A stretch of 63,196 nucleotides of DNA, the filler included, from Rhabdomonas costata (lineage: Eukaryota), in assembly GCA_019059605.1 (NCBI GenBank). It is 34 parts of 34 records of this genome, joined end to end, with 100 filler letters (N's around TTAATTAATTAA, not from the genome) between each part and the next. Parts side by side here need not be neighbours in the genome. Positions count along the whole stretch, not along the records: positions 13,028 to 14,791 come from JAHMHO010009425.1; 33 more parts are not named here. One strand, 5' to 3'. Both the position numbers and the translations under genes were made by a program. This document shows, one piece after another, positions 9,214-59,470 of this stretch. The notes beneath the pieces are model-generated. The model searched no databases. It was not told where the DNA came from and was given only the letters and a program-made list of their open reading frames with translations. Each line of letters starts with the position of its first letter. The stretch's first letter is position 1.

Positions 9214-11601
9214 NNNNNNNNNNNNNNNNNNNNNNNNNNNNNNNNNNNNNNNNNNNNTTAATTAATTAANNNNNNNNNNNNNNNNNNNNNNNNNNNNNNN
9301 NNNNNNNNNNNNNGGTGGTGGGTACCAAGAAACCTGCTTCCCATTGTTTTGGGTGACCCAGGATTTTTCCTGCCTGTTGTTTTTCCTCCTTGTGGGTGTG
9401 CCCCGATGTTAGTCCGCTTTGCTTGGGTCGAGCCCTGTGACGGGCTGATTTCACCCCTCTAGGAGTTTCATCGGTGCCTTTCTTGGCCCTGGCCAGTTTC
9501 GTCCCCCATTCCGCCCGCTGTTCAGCAATTACGTAGCGGCGTCATGAGCAGCAAAGGCTGCTCAGCTGATTAGCAAGGACAACATAAGAAAGTTCTGCGA
9601 GGGTTGCGGAAATCCGAACAGAACGGGTTTATACTTCTTAACTTCTAGGGTAGGTGGAAACTACTTGGTCAGGTGATTCTGGCGTAGTGCGGCCTTCGCC
9701 AACCACGTTGGGCGCCAAGCACGTCCATTTGGGATTATTAGTTTTTGGAAAAGCGGAGGGTTCCCAAGCGTCTTAGAGGCCGCTTTTGCACGATATTGCA
9801 AGGGCTTTACCGTTCCAGGTCTTCCTGAGGAGCGTTCGCTGCTTGACTGTCATTGGTATTGATCAACAAAGGGGAGGAGAAGGATTGAAGATGGAGGGGT
9901 GGGGGACGAAACCGGCCAAGGTCCTTTTTCTCGCTCGAGGTATATACGGATTGTCGCACCAGGATGGTGCCAGTCTTTGCACGTCTCTCATTCTCACACA
10001 TGCTCCGCTTTCTTTGTCACTCACGTTCCATACAAAGTAACGGGCTGTCTGCGTGGGCTGAGCCTTGGATTCTTTGAGGTTCTTCCCCGTGCATGTTTTT
10101 CTGTGTTAAGGGTTGTGTGGCTTTCTCTCCTGCTGCACGACTCTTTTTTTTTCTGGTGCGACTGCCCGGCTTCACGGGGCACTCGCCCGGTTCGGCGGGA
10201 ATTGCACAGCGGTGAGAACCTTCCACCTGTTGCCTTTCGTGCTTCCCCTGTTCAGTGTGCGGAAGTGGATGTGGAACATCATTGAAAATAGGGAAGAAGG
10301 AAGATGTGCTGTGGGTGCGGACAGAGATCAAAATTTTATTCAGTCACCGGAAACTGGGCAGCGGGCTCTCAGCGCGGCTATTCCATTTCAGGGTGTTCGC
10401 AGTGTGTCCCATTGAGGTTGATTTGGTTATTTGTGGTTTCCCTCGTATGCGTAGGTCGTCTTTTAGGTCGGGTATAAAAAACTTGTCACCTGGCAGGATC
10501 GTTTGTCTGTTGGTCTCAGCCTGCGAGAAATGAAGTGGGAGGCATAATTCGACAACCAAGGCGCGGATCCCAGCTGCAGCGATCAAAGCGCGAAACGCAA
10601 GCCAAAGGCGGGATAGAACAACAGGAGAACAACAGGGGTCAACTGTCCGATTCTGCTCTTTTTCACGCCAATCCTTTCCTTATAAATCCTCTCGTCAGCT
10701 ATGTCGTCCCCAAGGCATCCAAAAATTCAACCGATGGACAAATCGAAAACCCACCATGTTCATCAACTTATTTCCTCTTTGAGATTTTCGGGTGATATGG
10801 CTGAAACGTGGAGGAAAAAAGCACATAAGACGGAATCCTGCGTATATTGCCTATGCTCCATTGCCGTGCTTTCCTGTTTTGCGGCTGCTCTTTTGGCGCT
10901 GCCTTACGGCCTCCTGCTCATAACTCCACGCTCTAATTCCTCCTCCCTCCACTCTCCGTTTGTGCTCAGCGCGCCCAACACCAGGAGCAACAGGCGGGGG
11001 TGTTCCAGCATCCAGTTGCAGTCAAATTGCTCGGTAACCACATGGACCCATTTTAATGCACCCCCCCCCCCCCCCANNNNNNNNNNNNNNNNNNNNNNNN
11101 NNNNNNNNNNNNNNNNNNNNTTAATTAATTAANNNNNNNNNNNNNNNNNNNNNNNNNNNNNNNNNNNNNNNNNNNNTGGGGTGTTGCACGGCTGTGTTTG
11201 CAGGCGCGACTCGCCCGTCCCCCCGCGGGTCCGCCTGCGCCTGCAAACACAGCCGTGCAATACCACACCTATCGGAAACTGCAACGCGTCAGTTGATTTT
11301 CTTCAAGCACAGAGACTCTCTCAAGTGTGTTCGAATCGAAAGCGATTCAAGGAAGTAAAACGTACAACGAACAAACAGGTTTAAAAGGAATTCGTACCAA
11401 ACCATTGCGCATGCGCGGCTCGCGTTTGTGACTGCAGGAATCGTGAACGGTGAAGAAAGGGGCTACCATACCAAACTGAACCATGACACTTTTTGCCTAA
11501 GCTTCGAAAGGAGTGGGAGCCACTTCTTCTGAGGAGGCAAGAAAACCAAAAGAAAAGTGGCAAAAGAAAAAAAGTAAGAGAAGGAAGTCGGGTGGGCCCA
11601 C

Positions 11602-12826: not shown

Positions 12827-13180
12827 CTGCAGTGTGACAGAAATCAGAAGGAGAACAGTCCGAGGTGCAAAATCAGAGAACTAAAATGCCAAGGGAATGG
12901 TATTGCAAATCTGCATTTGTCGGGGCGNNNNNNNNNNNNNNNNNNNNNNNNNNNNNNNNNNNNNNNNNNNNTTAATTAATTAANNNNNNNNNNNNNNNNN
13001 NNNNNNNNNNNNNNNNNNNNNNNNNNNCCAGGACATCATACAGTGTCAACATGAGCAATAAAAGGAGCCTTAAAGAAAAAAGGTTCACTGCTGAACGTGT
13101 GCCAGACGTGTGCGCAGAAGCTTTGCTATTCCAAGTGTGCGTTTCACCCCGCAATTATACCCACATTAACTCGTTCACAG

Positions 13181-13363
13181 CCCTGGTGTGCTCCCTGCCC
13201 TGGTCGCTGCCCTCGGGATATTCCTACGCTGGTAGCGGGTGTGGCCCGGGGTATGTCAATGCCTCGAGCTGCACCGGACTGTCCTGCGCTTCTGGCTACC
13301 CGGGGGATGTGAGGGTGAGCTGCGACATTACCTATTGGACGTTCACCCTCTGGGGCTGCTCCG
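13181..13363 (+). CDS. 183-nt phase 1-1 exon encoding a 6-Cys Gly/Ser-rich module, inverted relative to the neighbouring gene
   Basis: ttcacag|CC CTG GTG TGC...TGC TCC G|gtgttc; LVCSLPWSLPSGYSYAGSGCGPGYVNASSCTGLSCASGYPGDVRVSCDITYWTFTLWGCS. Confidence 0.8.
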
Positions 13364-13555
13364 GTGTTCACTTCTGTGGTTTTCCTTTGTAGTGGACATT
13401 AAAAAGAAGCTCGTGCAAGTTTTCCCCAGGACGCGAGAGTTTTTATTTTACTTGCCTCCTTTTATTGCGCTGAGCCACCGCAGTGAAAAGACGATCTGCG
13501 AATTCCTTAGCAACTCACCACCCTCATCCACACACTCAAGAACTAATCTCCACAC

Positions 13556-14791
13556 CGCTGGTACACCCCGACAGCACGATGGCTCCCCGGGAAGAGCTGC
13601 ACGTCTTCGTGACGGTGCCGCTGTAGCCCGAGCCGCAGGAGAGCCCGCCACAGCTTCCCGGGGACACGTACCCGTCACAACCGCTGCCCGAGTACGCATA
13701 CCCCGAGGGCAGCGGAAAGGTCAGCGCACAGACCCAATCTGACACAAGCAAAGACTTGGCAAAACCCTAACCCTAAACCCAACTCTTCTGCAATTTCTGT
13801 TTACCGAATCACTTCTTAATTTTTTACACAAATAGCGCCTCTGACAAAAAAAAGAGGGCGGGGGAAACAGCATCCAGATGCCCACCAGCACAGCAGTCCG
13901 TCCACGAGCATGGGGTGCTGGCGCACGATGTCTGGTAGGGCATCAGCGAGAACCCAATGCTGGTGCACGTTGACGAGGCAAAGTTACAGCACAGCTGAGC
14001 TGGAAGAGAATGTGTGTGCGGGGGGGGGGGGGTTCAAACGAGTCGGAATTCAGCCACCAACGAGTAGAAAACGGAATTTACACAAGCAACCGGGTTTAGC
14101 AAGGAAACTAGGTTTGCCCTACAAACCCTCGAAAATCACATGAGCTGACCCCTAGTCAGCTGCTACCCGTCTCAAAAGGAGTGCCCCAGCCTCAGGTGCA
14201 CAATTTTGTGCATTACGGTTTCTCAAATGGGGAGAATCGCATCGGAGGCATCGAAAAACCGGAGAACAACTTCAAGAGTTCTCGATCTGTCCACACACCA
14301 CAGCAACAACGCATCACGCATGAGTTATCCCCAAAATACACGCGCATCACTCTCGAACCAAAAACAGAAACAAGATTCTGCACCAAAGCGTTGAAACAGC
14401 AAAAGGAGACCGCTACAGTTGTTGCTGTAGAAACTGCTGCTGGGCAAAGTTGGAAACATGGCCTGCAAGACGGAGGAGCTGAAGGACACGAAGTTACCGT
14501 ACACGCTGCCACTGCTGATGGTCCCTGTCGAGGACACACTGCCACAGATGGTATTGCTGTAGAAGTAGAGGTAGGAAACACTGCTCAGGAAGTTCAGGGT
14601 GACGCCGGTAGGAAAGGAATTCGAGTTCAGCGAAACTGATGAGAAGGAGCCCGTGGAGCTGGAGAGAGTGATGCTAGGACTGGAGGTTGTGGCGGTCTGC
14701 TGAGACTTGAAGGCTTTGGAGCTGGAGCGGGGCGAGCGAGCGGTAGAGGTGAAGGTTCCCGTCAACTTCATTGCAGACCGCCACACACCAC
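13556..14791 (-). CDS. Modular surface protein: LRR-like Ser-rich exon (14791-14411), small Cys module exon (13999-13886), 6-Cys module exon (13738-13556)
   Basis: Three exons join in phase 1 with GT-AG introns: ...SLNSNSFPTGVTLNFLSSVSYLYFYSNTICGSV...YSNNCS|AQLCCNFASSTCTSIGFSLMPYQTSCASTPCSWTDCCA|DWVCALTFPLPSGYAYSGSGCDGYVSPGSCGGLSCGSGYSGTVTKTCSSSRGAIVLSGCTS. The middle exon is not in the ORF track. Confidence 0.8.
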
Positions 14792-14989
14792 NNNNNNNNN
14801 NNNNNNNNNNNNNNNNNNNNNNNNNNNNNNNNNNNTTAATTAATTAANNNNNNNNNNNNNNNNNNNNNNNNNNNNNNNNNNNNNNNNNNNNGGTTTTGTG
14901 TTAACGCTTCGGCTTCGTCTGCGTTTGCGATGCTCGGTTTTTGTGGTCGTGTTTCTTTCGTTCACCGCTGCACTCCTTCCTCTCCGCAG

Positions 14990-23557: not shown

Positions 23558-24378
23558 GTCCATTTATTTGCGTTTGCCACTGCTGTCTTCCTTTACTCTG
23601 AATTGTGTTTGTATTCAGTGTTTACATATGCCCGCGTGCAAAGAAAAGATACATCTACGAAGAACCTCCCTGTGCTCAAACACGGTTAGCATCAAGGTCA
23701 CTCGTCGTCGTTGATCTCGAAGTGCTTGCAAGTTTGGATGGAGGAAACGAGGGCGGCGGGACTCCAGGCCATGTCAAAAGTGAGAAGTGAGAAATGACGG
23801 CTTATGTCACAACCAAAACATCGGCATGCCTCAGAAAAAGTCACCTGAATTTAGCAGCTTCCAATGCATACAAAACAACTGTGCTGACGTGGTTTACAAA
23901 CTGAGACTTTTTTACTATCCCTAAAACCCCTGGAAGTCCAAAAAGTAACATTTGGGTAACTCTTTTTTTCACTCTCACTTTTCGGGTCACGGGAACGTTC
24001 ACGCCTGTGGAAGTGCGTCGGATGCGACCTCAGCCTTGCACGCCCCTTTCTTTCCGTTCAGGGCCTTCTTGTTCGGCTCGTCACCCTTCCCACAACCCCN
24101 NNNNNNNNNNNNNNNNNNNNNNNNNNNNNNNNNNNNNNNNNNNTTAATTAATTAANNNNNNNNNNNNNNNNNNNNNNNNNNNNNNNNNNNNNNNNNNNNG
24201 TGCATTTAGTAGTGGCCCGCACGTTACTTCCGCAGTAGGGATGTTTTGGGAATTGGGCTGTGGATTTGATTGGTGATGTGGATCAGGCTCTGGAAGTGGA
24301 GTGTTTTTTGGGATTCGACGGAGATGACGATTTTATTTGGCCATGGGGATTTTGAAATGGTTGGTGGCTTGGAGGGTT

Positions 24379-24439
24379 GCCATGATGTGTTTAAAACAAA
24401 CCTATGACCGCTTCATGATGTGGCAACTGCGCTGATGGC
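24379..24439 (+). ncRNA. Candidate box C/D snoRNA (repeated at 24972-25032 and 25566-25626)
   Basis: GCCA-TGATG(C box)-tgtttaaaacaaacct-ATGA(D')-ccgcttca-TGATG(C')-tggcaactgcg-CTGA(D)-TGGC. All four boxes are in order with a GCCA/TGGC terminal stem; 61 nt; identical in all 3 copies. Confidence 0.7.
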
Positions 24440-24683
24440 GGGAGCTTGGGAGAAGCCCAGAGGATCGTGTTTTGAGCTTTGGGCGAGGACTCAGGCTGTT
24501 TTAGTTTTTGCCCGTGATGGGATGCGGTCGCTGTTGGAACGAGCAGCTTTTCTGATGCCGCTGATCATTTTTCTCTTCCAGGAAGCGATGCGAGTTGCTC
24601 CTCTTTTGTTTGGTGAGCAAGCGCTTTGTTGTGGTCAGGATTTGCACGATGGATCTAAATTTGACCCCACCCCACCTTCCTCC

Positions 24684-24766
24684 CGTTCCGCCCTGTCTCC
24701 GCACCGCTTTCGGGTTGTGGGGCACAGTCCGCCAGAACGATGCGGTATGGCGGAAGCGCGAGAAAT
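24684..24766 (+). ncRNA. Candidate single-hairpin AGA-box (H/ACA-like) pseudouridylation guide RNA (one per repeat unit)
   Basis: Lower stem TTCCGCC/GGCGGAA, internal pocket CTGYCT/TAT, upper stem CCGCA/TGCGG, apical GGGTTGTG/CACAGTCC. AGA at 24761-24763 lies 15 nt from the base of the upper stem. Confidence 0.5.
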
Positions 24767-27700
24767 TGAGGTTTTTTGTTTCGGGCTATCTTGTGCATTT
24801 AGTAGTGGCCCGCACGTTACTTCCGCAGTAGGGATGTTTTGGGAATTGGGCTGTGGATTTGATTGGTGATGTGGATCAGGCTCTGGAAGTGGAGTGTTTT
24901 TTGGGATTCGACGGAGATGACGATTTTATTTGGCCATGGGGATTTTGAAATGGTTGGTGGCTTGGAGGGTTGCCATGATGTGTTTAAAACAAACCTATGA
25001 CCGCTTCATGATGTGGCAACTGCGCTGATGGCGGGAACTTGGGAGAAGCCCAGAGGATCGTGTTTTGAGCTTTGGGCGAGGACTCAGGCTGTTTTAGTTT
25101 TTGCCCGTGATGGGATGCGGTCGCTGTTGGAACGAGCAGCTTTTCTGATGCCGTTGATCATTTTTCTCTTCCAGGAAGCGATGCGAGTTGCTCCTCTTTT
25201 GTTTGGTGAGCAAGCGCTTTGTTGTGGTCAGGATTTGCACGATGGATCTAAATTTGACCCCACCCCACCTTCCTCCCGTTCCGCCCTGCCTCCGCACCGC
25301 TTTCGGGTTGTGGGGCACAGTCCGCCAGAACGATGCGGTATGGCGGAAGCGCGAGAAATTGAGGTTTTTTTGTTTCGGGCTATCTCGTGCATTTAGTAGT
25401 GGCCCGCACGTTACTTCCGCAGTAGGGAGGTTTTGGGAATTGGGCTGTGGATTTGATTGGTGATGTGGAACAGGCTCTGGAAGTGGAGTGTTTTTTGGGA
25501 TTCGACGGAGATGACGATTTTATTTGGCCATGGGGATTTTGAAATGGTTGGTGGCTTGGAGGGTTGCCATGATGTGTTTAAAACAAACCTATGACCGCTT
25601 CATGATGTGGCAACTGCGCTGATGGCGGGAGCTTGGGAGAAGCCCAGAGGATCGTGTTTTGAGCTTTGGGCGAGGACTCAGGCTGTTTTAGTTTTTGCCC
25701 GTGATGGGATGCGGTCGCTGTTGGAACGAGCAGCTTTTCTGATGCCGTTGATCATTTTTCTCTTCCAGGAAGCGATGCGAGTTGCTCCTCTTTTGTTTGG
25801 TGAGCAAGCGCTTTGTTGTGGTCAGGATTTGCACGATGGATCTAAATTTGACCCCACCCCACCTTCCTCCCGTTCCGCCCTGCCTCCGCACCGCTTTCGG
25901 GTTGTGGGGCACAGTCCGCCAGAACGATGCGGTATGGCGGAAGCGCGAGAAATTGAGGTTTTTTNNNNNNNNNNNNNNNNNNNNNNNNNNNNNNNNNNNN
26001 NNNNNNNNTTAATTAATTAANNNNNNNNNNNNNNNNNNNNNNNNNNNNNNNNNNNNNNNNNNNNGGGTTTTGGGCTGCGCCCGCCACACTGCTGGAAGAG
26101 GTTGCCGGACAACCAGATTCATCGGGAGTTTTCAGAAGGACCCCTGATGCAGCCGCTGTCGCTTGCGCCAACGTTGCAGCGCAAGAAACCGGCGGCATCC
26201 TCCGCTGTGGCTGAACTGCGGAGGATAATGGAGAAGTTCCCGACTGGGCTGGAGCTTCCTTTTGTAACGTTGTAAGCTGCAAAAGCGTTCATTGGTGTGC
26301 AAGCTGTGAGATTAGCCTGGGCCCTGGAATGCGGTCGTTTCTTTGGGGCCTATTGTGTTTCTTTCGCTGATTTCAAGGCTCCCCTGAGTTCTGGTCATTT
26401 TTGAGGCCTCGGTGTTTTTCGACGCCTTACGCACATTCGTGCCTGTGGTTGCTTTATTATTTGTTCTCGGGAAAAACGGAGGTCTTCGCTTGCCATACCA
26501 AAATGTTGCGCATTTTTTGCCAGTGGCCCGTGCGTGGGCAGCCGATGAGCTACACTTCAGTTCTTTTAACCTGCTATTCTAACGCGATACTAAGAATAGT
26601 AACACCCCAAAACTCAGAAAAACTTGTTCGACCGACATAGTTCAACCTGGAGTCGACAGACCCTGTATAATTGCCATTGTCTTCAGCAAGATGATTCAGC
26701 AAGAAGATTATATGGTTCTGCGACTCCCCTTGCCGTCTTGGCTCGCACCCATATCAAGAGAAGGTCTTGTTTTGCGTTGCTACGCGCCGCAGGCGACAGC
26801 CGCGAGAAAAGTTTCGATTTTTGCCACCCCGGAAATGCTGCCGGGGGGTTGTACTGGTATGTTTTCTGCTTGGGGAGCACTAGACAACAAAAAAACAAGA
26901 ATTCTGTGGTTCTGAGTTTACGCTGTAACGTACTTTATTTTGTATAGTATAACTAAAGCAGGTAACACCCCAAAGTTAGAGAATGATGGAATTCCGATAT
27001 GAAGTTTTTTCTTGGTTCAAGTTACCTGTTCCCCTGTGGCTCCAGGCGCCATGAGGTAGTGTGCCACTATGGCCCCATGTTGCATGCCGATGAGCGGCCT
27101 GTGGGCCACAGGCAGAGATGTTTGAGGATCGAGAGGTTTGTTCAAGTGGCCCCTGCGCAGCCTCGCTTACGGGGTCCTACAGGGGCATCATTTTACAGCT
27201 CGCCGGCAGCTGTCCACTTCCCAGCCATGCAGGCGTTGATGCATCCGCACAAAACAAGCAAGTAGCGGCGCAGTGTCATGGAAAGCAGCCAATATTAGAA
27301 AAAAAGCAGCATCCACGCGGCAATCATTAGTGACGACTGCACAATCTGCAAAAAAAAAACCTACAAGATCTCAGTGAACAAGTTTTTATTGGCAACGCTG
27401 GAACAGGGAGTGGCAAGGATGCGTACGGTAAACTTCGGTGTCGCCCCAACAGAGTCATCTAACGCGTTGTGACGACCCCAGACCAGACCAGCGTGGCTAC
27501 ATGCGACGACGTGATCGCCGAATACGTCAAGAGGTTCCCCACAGTACTCGCACGGAGACCCCGCCGCTTCAGGTGGGAGAAAGGGAATTCCAAAGTGGAA
27601 TTGCAGCAGCAGTCGGTATTCGGCGGCACCGAAGTGATTATTATATAATATGCGATACTATATTTCATAGTCCCCTGCACCCAAGCCATTCTCCGATTCC

Positions 27701-49883: not shown

Positions 49884-50268
49884 TTGGTGTAAGCAGCGAA
49901 AGACCACCAAAGGAAAAGAGAAAATATCAGAAGACAGATGACAATGACAGAATACGTGAAGATCTGCGACAACGGCGGGCTACGTGTGGAAAGAGCGGCA
50001 GTGCCCACAGTGAGCTTTCGGCGGATACAGTCAAGTTAGAACCACCGCGGAGGCACGGGGCTTGAGGATCCTGTGATATGCTATGCATGGTTGTCTGTCA
50101 GTAAGAGTTGGCTTCGCTTAAGTCCTCCGGCCTTTGTGTTTGTGTCAGCATTGAGCACNNNNNNNNNNNNNNNNNNNNNNNNNNNNNNNNNNNNNNNNNN
50201 NNTTAATTAATTAANNNNNNNNNNNNNNNNNNNNNNNNNNNNNNNNNNNNNNNNNNNNGGGGGTTGTT

Positions 50269-50384
50269 TTGTACGGATTGCTTTTCAAATGGGACCGCAT
50301 TCTATTCGCGCAGTGCCGCACGATCCTGATGGTGCGGCACTGCGCGAATAGAATGCGGTCCCATTTGAAAAGCAATCCGTACAA
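50269..50384. repeat. Perfect palindrome: 53-bp arms, 10-nt loop
   Basis: 50269-50321 is the exact reverse complement of 50332-50384; loop GATCCTGATG. Confidence 0.95.
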
Positions 50385-50682
50385 GACTACCCTGCAAAGC
50401 ACAGCCATGCCCTCCGTTATGGTCTGCAGGGCCATGCTGCCAGCGGCGCTGGAATTGCTCGGTTCAGCTCCTCAGCAGGTCCAGTAATTTTGTGAACGTA
50501 GAGTGAGTGATTTGAGAAAACTGTGACACAACATGAATTAGAATTAAAGTATTAAAGTCATTCGTTCCCTTGCCCGTTACCAGCGGTATGTCCCCTACAG
50601 AGTCGACCTTGCACTTCCTCAAACCAGACATCGACGGCTTTTCTTTCCCTTGGGCCTCACGGGTCCTGGTCTGCCTGTGCAG

Positions 50683-59405: not shown

Positions 59406-59470
59406 TTTGGGGTATTTTTGAGCCCTTTTTGCCTTTACACAAGCTTGCAAGGGCCCAAAAATACCCCAAA
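59406..59470. repeat. Inverted repeat with 22-bp arms at contig end
   Basis: TTTGGGGTATTTTTGAGCCCTT (59406-59427) vs AAGGGCCCAAAAATACCCCAAA (59449-59470); 1 mismatch. Confidence 0.85.

What the first reader, a model, noticed from the sequence alone, without database searches (positions are those of the whole stretch)
13181..13738. Paralogous 183-nt cassette exons facing each other on opposite strands inside a modular LRR-like surface-protein gene
Seen: exons 13181-13363 (+) and 13738-13556 (-) are both exactly 183 nt, both phase 1-1, both stop-free with intact AG/GT sites. They encode the same 6-Cys module (LPSGYxYxGSGC..GYV...SC.GLSC.SGY.G.V...C......L.GC, about half of residues identical by hand alignment). 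Their donors point at each other across only 192 bp and their intron flanks are unrelated. The minus copy splices in frame to two upstream exons (LRR-like and a small Cys module), so the next intron of that gene must contain an antisense paralog of its own exon. Inference: flipping the plus copy would add or swap an in-frame module, as in an inversion-switched (shufflon-like) exon cassette diversifying a surface receptor. Other explanations are two interleaved paralogs on opposite strands, an RNA-duplex exon-skipping device, a fixed inversion, or an inverted amplification chimera. I found no recombination-site inverted repeats within the contig.
Basis: partly seen in the sequence, partly recalled or inferred. 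Interest (0 to 1): 0.72.

Follow-up and report, generated by a model that had tools for sequence, protein, structure and literature searches.

The report
Flipped Sushi-like module exon in gene
Two related 61-codon exons for a Sushi-like protein module really do face each other on opposite strands of a small unplaced contig, most likely because a 0.4-kb piece carrying one exon was turned around between two 13-base inverted repeats; that points to a small inversion, and nothing yet shows a genetic switch.

Summary
Exons 13181-13363 (+) and 13738-13556 (-) are both 183 nt, phase 1-1, open and AG/GT-bounded. They are 53% identical in protein and about 71% in DNA over 97 nt, and their flanks are unrelated. 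Both match a profile of 117 modules from 23 protist proteins equally well (40.9 and 42.3 bits). The module is a divergent Sushi/CCP-like repeat. In relatives it forms co-oriented arrays, one module per phase-1 exon.

New here: a perfect 13-nt inverted repeat (13055-13067 / 13456-13468) brackets the plus exon. About 0.3% of equivalent placements in the other 33 contigs are bracketed this way. Flipping the 388 nt between the arms would give a canonical A-B-C-P array with a 213-nt intron.

Best reading (0.4): a one-off small inversion of an exon-bearing segment, tolerated because the exon is symmetrical. Rivals are two convergent paralogous genes (0.25), an artefact (0.12), a programmed inversion switch (0.07) and an RNA-duplex device (0.04).

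The window is 34 unplaced contigs of about 1.76 kb joined by linkers. No genome or reads were available, so orientation and transcription could not be tested. "LRR-like" for the upstream exon is unverified.

The parts
13028..14791 (.). The contig that holds everything (1764 nt). The window parts on either side are other unplaced contigs behind N/TTAATTAATTAA linkers.
13181..13363 (+). Exon P: a 183-nt, phase 1-1 Sushi/CCP-like module exon with 6 Cys, acceptor ttcacAG and donor G|GTGTTC.
   Evidence: Family profile 40.9 bits. GC3 0.78 against 0.45-0.46 GC in the flanks.
13556..13738 (-). Exon C: the paralogous 183-nt, phase 1-1 module exon and third exon of the minus-strand gene, with acceptor gtgtcAG and donor G|GTGTGG.
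   Evidence: Family profile 42.3 bits. GC3 0.83.
13886..13999 (-). Exon B: 114 nt, phase 1-1, a small Cys-rich piece (7 Cys in the 37 residues translated).
   Evidence: No Pfam match. Similarity to P0004 is not significant, E 0.13.
14411..14791 (-). Exon A: a Ser/Thr-rich open frame running off the contig end, with donor AGCG|GT.
13055..13067 (.). Left arm of the perfect 13-nt inverted repeat (GCAATAAAAGGAG), 113 nt upstream of exon P.
13456..13468 (.). Right arm of the 13-nt inverted repeat, 92 nt downstream of exon P and 87 nt from the end of exon C.
13068..13455 (.). The 388-nt segment between the arms: exon P with its own splice sites and intron flanks. This is the candidate inverted segment.
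   Evidence: inference
13364..13555 (.). The 192-nt spacer between the two donors, 45% GC. It has no coding signal and no similarity between its halves.

Best explanation
The contig carries part of a gene for a modular, probably extracellular, protein.

**The gene family.** It is built from divergent Sushi/CCP-like modules, with one module per symmetrical phase 1-1 exon. In relatives these exons lie head to tail on one strand. Here the minus-strand gene reads exon A, exon B, exon C. What would be the next module exon (P) lies 192 nt further on, but on the other strand.

**The proposed event.** P sits in a 388-nt segment bracketed by a perfect 13-nt inverted repeat. I read this as one small DNA inversion of an intron-exon-intron piece. 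The 13-nt repeat is either the microhomology that mediated the inversion or the duplication left by staggered breaks. The inversion may be fixed or allelic. An allelic inversion would also explain why the contig stayed unplaced.

**Why it is probably recent.** The arms are still perfect, and P keeps its frame, its 6 Cys and both splice sites.

**Why it is tolerated.** P is a symmetrical exon, so the minus-strand mRNA can splice from exon C to the following exon and stay in frame, simply lacking one module.

**What is shown:** the two exons, their homology, the family, the repeat, and the geometry of the flip.

**What is inferred:** that an inversion happened, its recency, and the exon skipping.
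For: 1. Both exons are true family members with near-equal scores (40.9 and 42.3 bits) against a profile of 117 modules from 23 proteins.
2. Relatives carry up to 18 modules in tandem on one polypeptide. The one independent genomic relative, L001, has two co-oriented 174-nt phase 1-1 module exons 340 nt apart.
3. A perfect 13-nt inverted repeat brackets P, with arms 113 and 92 nt from the exon.
   - Any 13-nt inverted repeat occurs in 27 of 1000 dinucleotide shuffles of the contig and in 6 of the other 33 contigs.
   - A bracket of at least 13 nt with the same geometry occurs at 112 of 40708 placements (0.28%) in those 33 contigs. All 112 come from a single repeat.
   - The motif occurs nowhere else in the window within 2 mismatches.
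4. Flipping gives a 213-nt intron, within the gene's own range of 147-411 nt. It also gives an in-frame junction with a 5-residue linker between Cys residues, as in the family.
5. No other plus-strand coding-like frame lies in the 1.43 kb downstream of P, apart from frames antisense to the minus exons. P therefore does not look like an internal exon of a normally spaced plus-strand gene.
6. P has the same GC3 (0.78) as exons A-C (0.75-0.83), against 0.44-0.50 GC in the non-coding parts.
7. P and C are old paralogues. pS is 0.65 and pN 0.33 (ratio about 0.29), and 17 of 32 identical residues use different codons. Each is as close to foreign modules such as P0004 module 6 (57% and 53%) as to the other. 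The pair is therefore two array members, not a fresh inverted copy.
Against: - The chance estimate for the repeat rests on one background event and was made after looking. With 3-4 equally meaningful placements it is nearer 1%.
- The repeat is only 13 nt and A/T-rich, and it contains AATAAA. The similarity does not extend beyond the core: for 20-nt flanks, 233 of 2000 shuffles do as well outward and 1568 of 2000 inward.
- No un-inverted allele, outgroup orthologue, read or transcript could be examined.
- Only 153 nt lie upstream of P, so upstream plus-strand exons cannot be excluded.
- Each exon, if left unspliced, reaches a stop within 6-9 codons and is followed by poly(A)-signal-like hexamers (sequence). 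That also fits two convergent gene ends.
- P is only slightly more aberrant than C at conserved family columns: about 7 against 4-5 rare residues. There is no clear sign of decay.
Confidence: 0.4

Rival explanations
1. There are two separate paralogous genes, or a gene and a gene fragment, on opposite strands lying tail to tail. Exon P belongs to a plus-strand gene whose earlier exons lie beyond the contig's left end. P and C are either the last coding exons of convergent genes or exons of interleaved genes. The 13-nt repeat is coincidence.
For: - P is intact, has good splice sites and has coding-type GC3.
- dN/dS of about 0.29 shows long protein-level constraint on both copies.
- If unspliced, both frames stop after 9 (P) and 6 (C) further codons. 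ATTAAA follows on the plus strand and AATAAA on the minus strand within about 10-70 nt.
- From general knowledge, inverted neighbours are common in multigene families.
Against: - It leaves the bracket of about 0.3-1% chance unexplained.
- No further plus-strand exon candidate lies in the 1.43 kb downstream, although this gene's introns are 147-411 nt.
- Relatives end in hydrophobic tails or go on with more modules, not a few residues after a module.
- In relatives' genomic ORFs the module ends at GC-x-G followed by non-coding-looking sequence, that is, at a donor.
Confidence: 0.25
2. The arrangement is an artefact. It does not exist in the organism and arose in a chimeric clone, by template switching during amplification, or by misjoining of paralogous reads in a low-coverage orphan contig.
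For: - The contig is one of 34 unplaced pieces of about 1.76 kb.
- 4 of the 34 contigs carry self-complementary stretches at or near a contig end: 7-39/111-143, 11177-11267, 50261-50392 at 94%, and 59406-59470. These may be fold-back artefacts.
Against: - The exon arms are only 71% alike, so this is not a fold-back copy.
- Both inversion junctions are present. The sequence outside one 13-nt arm is not the reverse complement of that outside the other, which a single template switch would give.
- By general knowledge, 13 nt is too short to misjoin reads in an assembler.
- All four exons are frame-intact.
Confidence: 0.12
3. It is a programmed, reversible inversion switch. A site-specific or repeat-directed recombination flips the 388-nt cassette between the 13-nt arms. 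Cells then make the protein with or without module P, diversifying a surface receptor.
For: - An invertible-looking segment with perfect inverted arms brackets one exon.
- Both orientations would be in frame because the exon is phase 1-1.
- P is fully intact, as expected if it is regularly used.
- An orphan contig is what a second orientation would leave in an assembly (inference).
Against: - No recombinase, second orientation or second such cassette was seen. The module occurs nowhere else in the other 33 contigs.
- The arms are not themselves palindromic core sites and show no extended site structure.
- My two literature searches listed no natural eukaryotic nuclear exon-inversion switch. 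They found only an engineered Cre design, seen as a search listing.
- One event explains the data equally well.
Confidence: 0.07
4. It is an RNA-level device. The minus-strand pre-mRNA contains exon C and, downstream, the antisense of P. Their pairing controls splicing of exon C or feeds a small-RNA pathway. Alternatively, the 13-nt arms loop out the antisense segment.
For: RNA 13770-13150 (minus strand) folds at -258 kcal/mol against -234 +/- 4.3 for 20 shuffles (z -5.5), with C paired to antisense P in the minimum-energy structure. The longest ungapped arm is 59 nt at 75% complementarity.
Against: Any inverted paralogue pair gives such a fold, so it is a by-product and not evidence of selection. 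The conservation between the copies is at protein level, with synonymous sites near saturation, and not at the level of pairing. No transcript data are available.
Confidence: 0.04

Closest known systems
Sushi / CCP / SCR repeat (Pfam PF00084) proteins with one module per phase 1-1 exon
   Same: - The module is about 60 residues and all-beta. The model has pLDDT 93.6.
- Its only structural neighbours, 33 chains at Z 2-3.4, are almost all complement-control-type module proteins by title.
- The relative P0027 matches PF00084 at 6.7e-40 and carries 13 of my modules.
- Tandem arrays and symmetrical phase-1 exons are the same as in animal CCP genes (recalled).
   Different: - The window's two modules get no Pfam match at E<=10, and Foldseek finds nothing.
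- They have 6 Cys rather than 4.
- The conserved Trp of Sushi is usually Phe in this family.
- The named relatives come from protists: a dinoflagellate transcriptome and a EukProt entry, named by their sources.
Small inversions flanked by short inverted repeats or inverted duplications (microhomology-mediated or staggered-break inversions; recalled from the literature on Drosophila and human structural variants)
   Same: A sub-kilobase segment lies in reversed orientation relative to the family's usual order, with a short perfect inverted repeat at both breakpoints.
   Different: The ancestral, un-inverted state is inferred from relatives and not seen at the orthologous site. The segment carries exactly one symmetrical exon with its splice sites.
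Bacterial invertible elements (fim switch, Hin/Gin, and the Rci shufflon, which swaps C-terminal exon-like segments of a pilus protein; recalled)
   Same: A short segment bracketed by short inverted repeats, whose orientation would change the protein made. In size it resembles the 314-bp fim element with its 9-bp repeats (recalled).
   Different: This is a eukaryotic nuclear gene with spliceosomal introns. No recombinase, second orientation or multiple cassettes were seen, and reversibility is untested.
Engineered Cre/lox inverted-exon ('genetic switch') alleles
   Same: An exon placed in antisense orientation in an intron between inverted sites, silent until flipped (PMC6415906, seen as title and abstract start in the listing).
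   Different: That design is man-made, with 34-bp lox sites and a supplied recombinase. Here there is only a natural 13-nt repeat and no known enzyme.

Membership tests
Sushi/CCP/SCR domain (PF00084) | Matches the Pfam model above its gathering score | tested here: not met
   Neither window module matches any Pfam family at E<=10. The link is indirect: relative P0027 scores 135.7 bits on PF00084 and holds 13 modules of my family profile.
Sushi/CCP/SCR domain (PF00084) | Small beta-sandwich fold shared with solved CCP modules | tested here: inconclusive
   The model has pLDDT 93.6. Foldseek against the PDB gives no match. VIA-align wide gives 33 chains at Z>=2, best 3.4, nearly all CCP-module proteins by title, but Z is low. 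Atlas feature hits to Sushi clusters score 0.86-0.87, which is a lead only.
Sushi/CCP/SCR domain (PF00084) | Four conserved Cys and a conserved Trp before the last Cys (recalled definition) | tested here: inconclusive
   The family has 4 invariant Cys plus 2 at 65%. The position before the last strand is Phe in 55% of modules. P has Trp nearby and C has none. Disulfide pairing was not examined.
Site-specific DNA inversion switch (shufflon / Hin / Fim type) | Invertible segment bounded by inverted repeat sites | tested here: met
   Perfect 13-nt arms at 13055-67 and 13456-68. The bracket has about 0.28% chance by placement in the other 33 contigs. There is no extended site structure.
Site-specific DNA inversion switch (shufflon / Hin / Fim type) | Both orientations coexist in a population | not testable with these tools
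Site-specific DNA inversion switch (shufflon / Hin / Fim type) | A dedicated recombinase | not testable with these tools
   Only 1764 nt of linked sequence exist. Their open frames were not searched for a recombinase, and the rest of the genome is unavailable.
Site-specific DNA inversion switch (shufflon / Hin / Fim type) | Orientation changes the product | tested here: met
   Worked out on the sequence only. The flip puts P after C in frame (G+CC = Ala) with a 213-nt intron. No expression data are available.
Fold-back / inverted amplification chimera | Arms near-identical, and sequence past the turn is the reverse complement of the sequence before it | tested here: not met
   The exon arms are 71% identical in DNA. 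The flanks outside the 13-nt arms are unrelated: 233 of 2000 shuffles do as well.
DNA transposon / MITE carrying an exon | Terminal inverted repeats with a target-site duplication | tested here: not met
   The arms could serve as terminal repeats. However, the bases directly outside them (…ATGA on the left, GCTG… on the right) are not a duplication, and there is no other copy in the window.
Leucine-rich repeat protein (exon A) | Matches an LRR model or fold | tested here: inconclusive
   No Pfam match at E<=10, no homologue, and a single-sequence model with pLDDT 36. One or two L..L.L..N.x.G-like stretches can be seen by eye only.

The most novel reading that the evidence does not exclude
The 388-nt cassette between the 13-nt arms is a natural, reversible invertible exon in a eukaryotic nuclear gene. 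Flipping it adds or removes one Sushi-like module from a surface protein. It would be a eukaryotic counterpart of bacterial shufflon or fim-type switches and a natural version of engineered Cre inverted-exon alleles.
Probability: 0.07. Interest if true: 0.9.

Novelty: new member of a known kind. Interest (0 to 1): 0.35.

Why it matters
If it is a simple inversion, it shows in a small way how symmetrical module exons make modular surface-protein genes tolerant of rearrangement. It also flags a widespread protist Sushi-like module family that Pfam does not recognise in these two copies.

If both orientations coexist in cells, it would be a natural DNA-inversion exon switch in a eukaryotic nucleus. 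My two literature searches found no example of that. One PCR or a look at long reads would settle it, so the claim is cheap to test.

Tried and rejected
**Unavailable**
- Whole genome: none is held.
- Cluster-member look-up: switched off.
- Earlier scan notes: none by place, sequence or words.

**Searches for more family members**
- A word-based protein search with exon P against longer proteins found nothing. The same search with exon A also found nothing.
- Of the 25 hits of the exhaustive search, I dropped 4. P0001, P0005 and P0012 are fn3 proteins by Pfam, two of them with a Por secretion tail. P0022 was dropped for the same partial match pattern without a Pfam check.

**Searches for more related loci**
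- The first alignment was too diverse.
- The metagenome scan gave one locus, L001.
- The prokaryote genome scan gave none.
- The viral scan gave 3 loci with 17-residue matches that hold no module by my profile.
- The base rate of inverted neighbours in this family could therefore not be measured.

**Readings considered and set aside**
- Transposon reading: no target-site duplication.
- A longer degenerate repeat around the 13-nt core: not significant.
- A possible hydrophobic C-terminal exon on the minus strand at about 13135-13028, in phase after exon C: GC3 is about 0.5 by hand count, against 0.75-0.83 for exons A-C and P, and the acceptor is purine-rich, so it is not proposed.
- Exon B as a relative of the pre-module region of P0004: E 0.13, not significant.

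**Other null results**
- The bacterial promoter/terminator scan, the Rfam scan (best E 0.62) and the tandem-repeat scan gave nothing relevant.
- PDB sequence search with P0003: no hit.
- Literature: searches listed no natural analogue. One search led to PMC4501334, where the passages shown mention Sushi only as the apical sushi protein. One search was seen as a listing only.
Full report
**Setting.** The 63-kb window is not one stretch of genome. It is 34 contigs of 1751-1772 nt, each separated by 44 N, TTAATTAATTAA and 44 N. This looks like a bin of unplaced contigs sorted by size. The finding lies in contig 13028-14791 (1764 nt), and only this much sequence is physically linked to it.

- Exon P (13181-13363, +) has acceptor ttcacAG and donor G|GTGTTC. 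Exon C (13738-13556, -) has acceptor gtgtcAG and donor G|GTGTGG. The donors are 192 nt apart.
- Both exons are 183 nt and open in the frame starting at their third base (phase 1-1). Each encodes 6 Cys.
- They share 31 of 59 residues (53%). In a tblastn of each against the whole window the other copy scores E about 2e-13, and nothing else scores below E 1.
- DNA identity is 69 of 97 (71%) over the first half of the exons.
- The similarity stops at the exon edges. Neither the upstream introns (37 of 200 shuffles as good) nor the two spacer halves (43 of 200) are related, whereas for the exons 0 of 200 shuffles reach the score.
- On the minus strand, exon A (14791..14411, open at the contig end), exon B (13999..13886, 114 nt) and exon C join in frame with phase-1 junctions and introns of 411 and 147 nt.
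- All four exons have GC3 of 0.75-0.83, against 0.44-0.50 GC in introns and spacer.

**What the module is.**
- An exhaustive profile-free search with exon C found 25 proteins at E<=1e-3. I dropped four. Three are fn3 proteins by Pfam, two of them with a Por secretion tail. One (P0022) had the same partial match pattern and was not checked.
- The rest are proteins with up to 18 tandem copies of the same module of about 58 residues. Several have a signal peptide and a hydrophobic C-terminal tail. One has a module, a membrane span and a RING finger.
- Source names place P0002 in a dinoflagellate transcriptome and P0004 in EukProt.
- A profile built from 117 modules of 23 of these proteins scores exon C at 42.3 bits and exon P at 40.9 bits.
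- Pfam does not recognise the window's two modules. However, the relative P0027, which holds 13 modules of my profile, matches Sushi PF00084 at 6.7e-40.
- An AlphaFold model of exon C with a 14-row alignment has pLDDT 93.6. Foldseek finds nothing in the PDB.
- An all-against-representatives alignment gives 33 chains at Z 2-3.4. By title these are almost all complement-control-type module proteins. Atlas feature hits also point to Sushi clusters, at scores below 0.9.
- I therefore call it a divergent Sushi/CCP-like module with an extra Cys pair. It works like a Sushi module, but membership by the Pfam model is not met.
- "LRR-like" for exon A could not be verified. Exon B has no significant relative.

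**How relatives arrange the module.**
- The transcript-derived relatives carry modules head to tail in one polypeptide.
- The single independent genomic relative I could fetch is a 1280-nt metagenome contig (L001). It has two co-oriented module exons, each 174 nt, phase 1-1 and AG/GT-bounded, 340 nt apart.
- Several short hits are plainly open frames read across one exon into intron-like sequence, ending at GC-x-G.
- So one module per symmetrical exon, in co-oriented arrays, is the family norm. An inverted neighbour is the exception.
- I could not measure how rare it is. The other 33 contigs hold no further module, and scans of prokaryote genomes and viral contigs gave nothing real.

**Age of the pair.**
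- P and C are old paralogues. pS is 0.65 (near saturation) and pN 0.33, a ratio of about 0.29. Of 32 identical residues, 17 use different codons.
- Each is as similar to foreign modules of the same 6-Cys subtype as to the other. For example, P0004 module 6 is 57% identical to P and 53% to C.
- They are two members of an array, not a fresh inverted copy. That alone rules out a fold-back amplification copy of one exon.
- P carries somewhat more residues that are rare at conserved family columns, about 7 against 4-5 for C. It keeps every Cys, Gly and Tyr of the core.

**The new element.**
The repeat finder lists a perfect 13-nt pair, GCAATAAAAGGAG at 13055-13067 and its complement at 13456-13468.
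- The arms lie 113 nt upstream and 92 nt downstream of exon P, so they bracket exactly that exon and its splice sites.
- Any perfect inverted repeat of at least 13 nt occurs in 27 of 1000 dinucleotide shuffles of the contig, and once each in 6 of the other 33 contigs.
- With the same geometry (a 183-nt interval with 153- and 192-nt flanks), a bracket of at least 13 nt occurs at 112 of 40708 placements (0.28%) in those contigs, all from one repeat. The figure is 0.5% for at least 11 nt and 2.7% for at least 10 nt (rates).
- The motif is not a common element. Within 2 mismatches it occurs only at these two sites in the window.
- The similarity does not extend beyond the 13-nt core in either direction. 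The bases outside the arms are not a target-site duplication.
- Because the sequence outside one arm is not the reverse complement of that outside the other, the structure is a complete two-junction inversion geometry. It is not the product of a single template switch.

**What a flip would do.**
- Inverting 13068-13455 would place P on the minus strand, downstream of C.
- The intron would be 87+13+113 = 213 nt and would use P's own acceptor.
- The junction codon would be G+CC (Ala), and the linker between the flanking Cys residues would be 5 residues. Both are typical of the family.
- The gene would then read A-B-C-P and continue off the contig.
- Conversely, on the plus strand nothing coding-like follows P for 1.43 kb, except frames antisense to the minus exons. 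That is hard to square with a normally spaced plus-strand gene.

**Weighing the readings.**
- *Small inversion (0.4).* I favour a single small inversion of an exon-bearing segment. The repeat is either the mediating microhomology or the footprint of staggered breaks (mechanisms recalled, not tested). The event is recent, because the arms are perfect and P is intact. It is tolerated because skipping a symmetrical exon keeps the frame. An allelic inversion would also explain an orphan contig.
- *Two opposite-strand paralogues or a gene fragment (0.25).* This fits P's integrity and the nearby stops and poly(A)-like hexamers. It leaves the bracket and the lack of further plus-strand exons unexplained.
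- *Artefact (0.12).* This remains possible for an unplaced low-coverage contig in an assembly where 4 of 34 contigs have a self-complementary stretch at or near an end. The usual artefact signatures are absent here.
It gains the bracket but nothing else. No recombinase, second orientation or further cassettes were seen, and my two literature searches listed no natural precedent.
- *RNA-duplex function (0.04).* It rests on a fold (z -5.5) that any inverted paralogue pair would give.

**Verdict.** The best-supported explanation is an ordinary small inversion in a modular gene. The switch reading is cheap to test and would be important, but it is unlikely on present evidence.

Noticed in passing
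whole window; linkers e.g. 12928-13027 and 14792-14891: The window is 34 contigs of 1751-1772 nt joined by N44 + TTAATTAATTAA + N44 linkers, apparently a size-sorted bin of unplaced contigs. Adjacency between contigs means nothing.
   Followed up: yes
7-39/111-143; 11177-11267; 50261-50392; 59406-59470: Four contigs carry a self-complementary stretch at or near a contig end (94%, 76%, 94% and 74% identity between arms). They may be fold-back artefacts of library or assembly, or real hairpin-forming repeats.
   Followed up: partly
24200-25964: This contig is a tandem repeat with a period of about 593 nt, about 3 copies at 99.3% identity.
   Followed up: no
14688-14700 and 14773-14785: A second perfect 13-nt inverted repeat lies in the same contig, inside coding exon A, with 72 nt between the arms. 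It is unexplained and may be chance.
   Followed up: no
13765-13782 and 14020-14032: A telomere-like CCCTAA/CCCTAAA stretch lies in the intron between exons B and C. A run of 13 G lies in the intron between exons A and B.
   Followed up: no
L001:1-1280: The related metagenome contig has its first 107 nt identical to its last 107 nt (period 1173 nt). The two-exon module unit is therefore either tandemly repeated or was assembled as a circle.
   Followed up: partly
protein P0008 (relative, not in the window): One relative combines a signal peptide, a single module of the same 6-Cys subtype, a membrane span and a C-terminal RING-H2 finger. This is a receptor-like E3 ligase layout.
   Followed up: no
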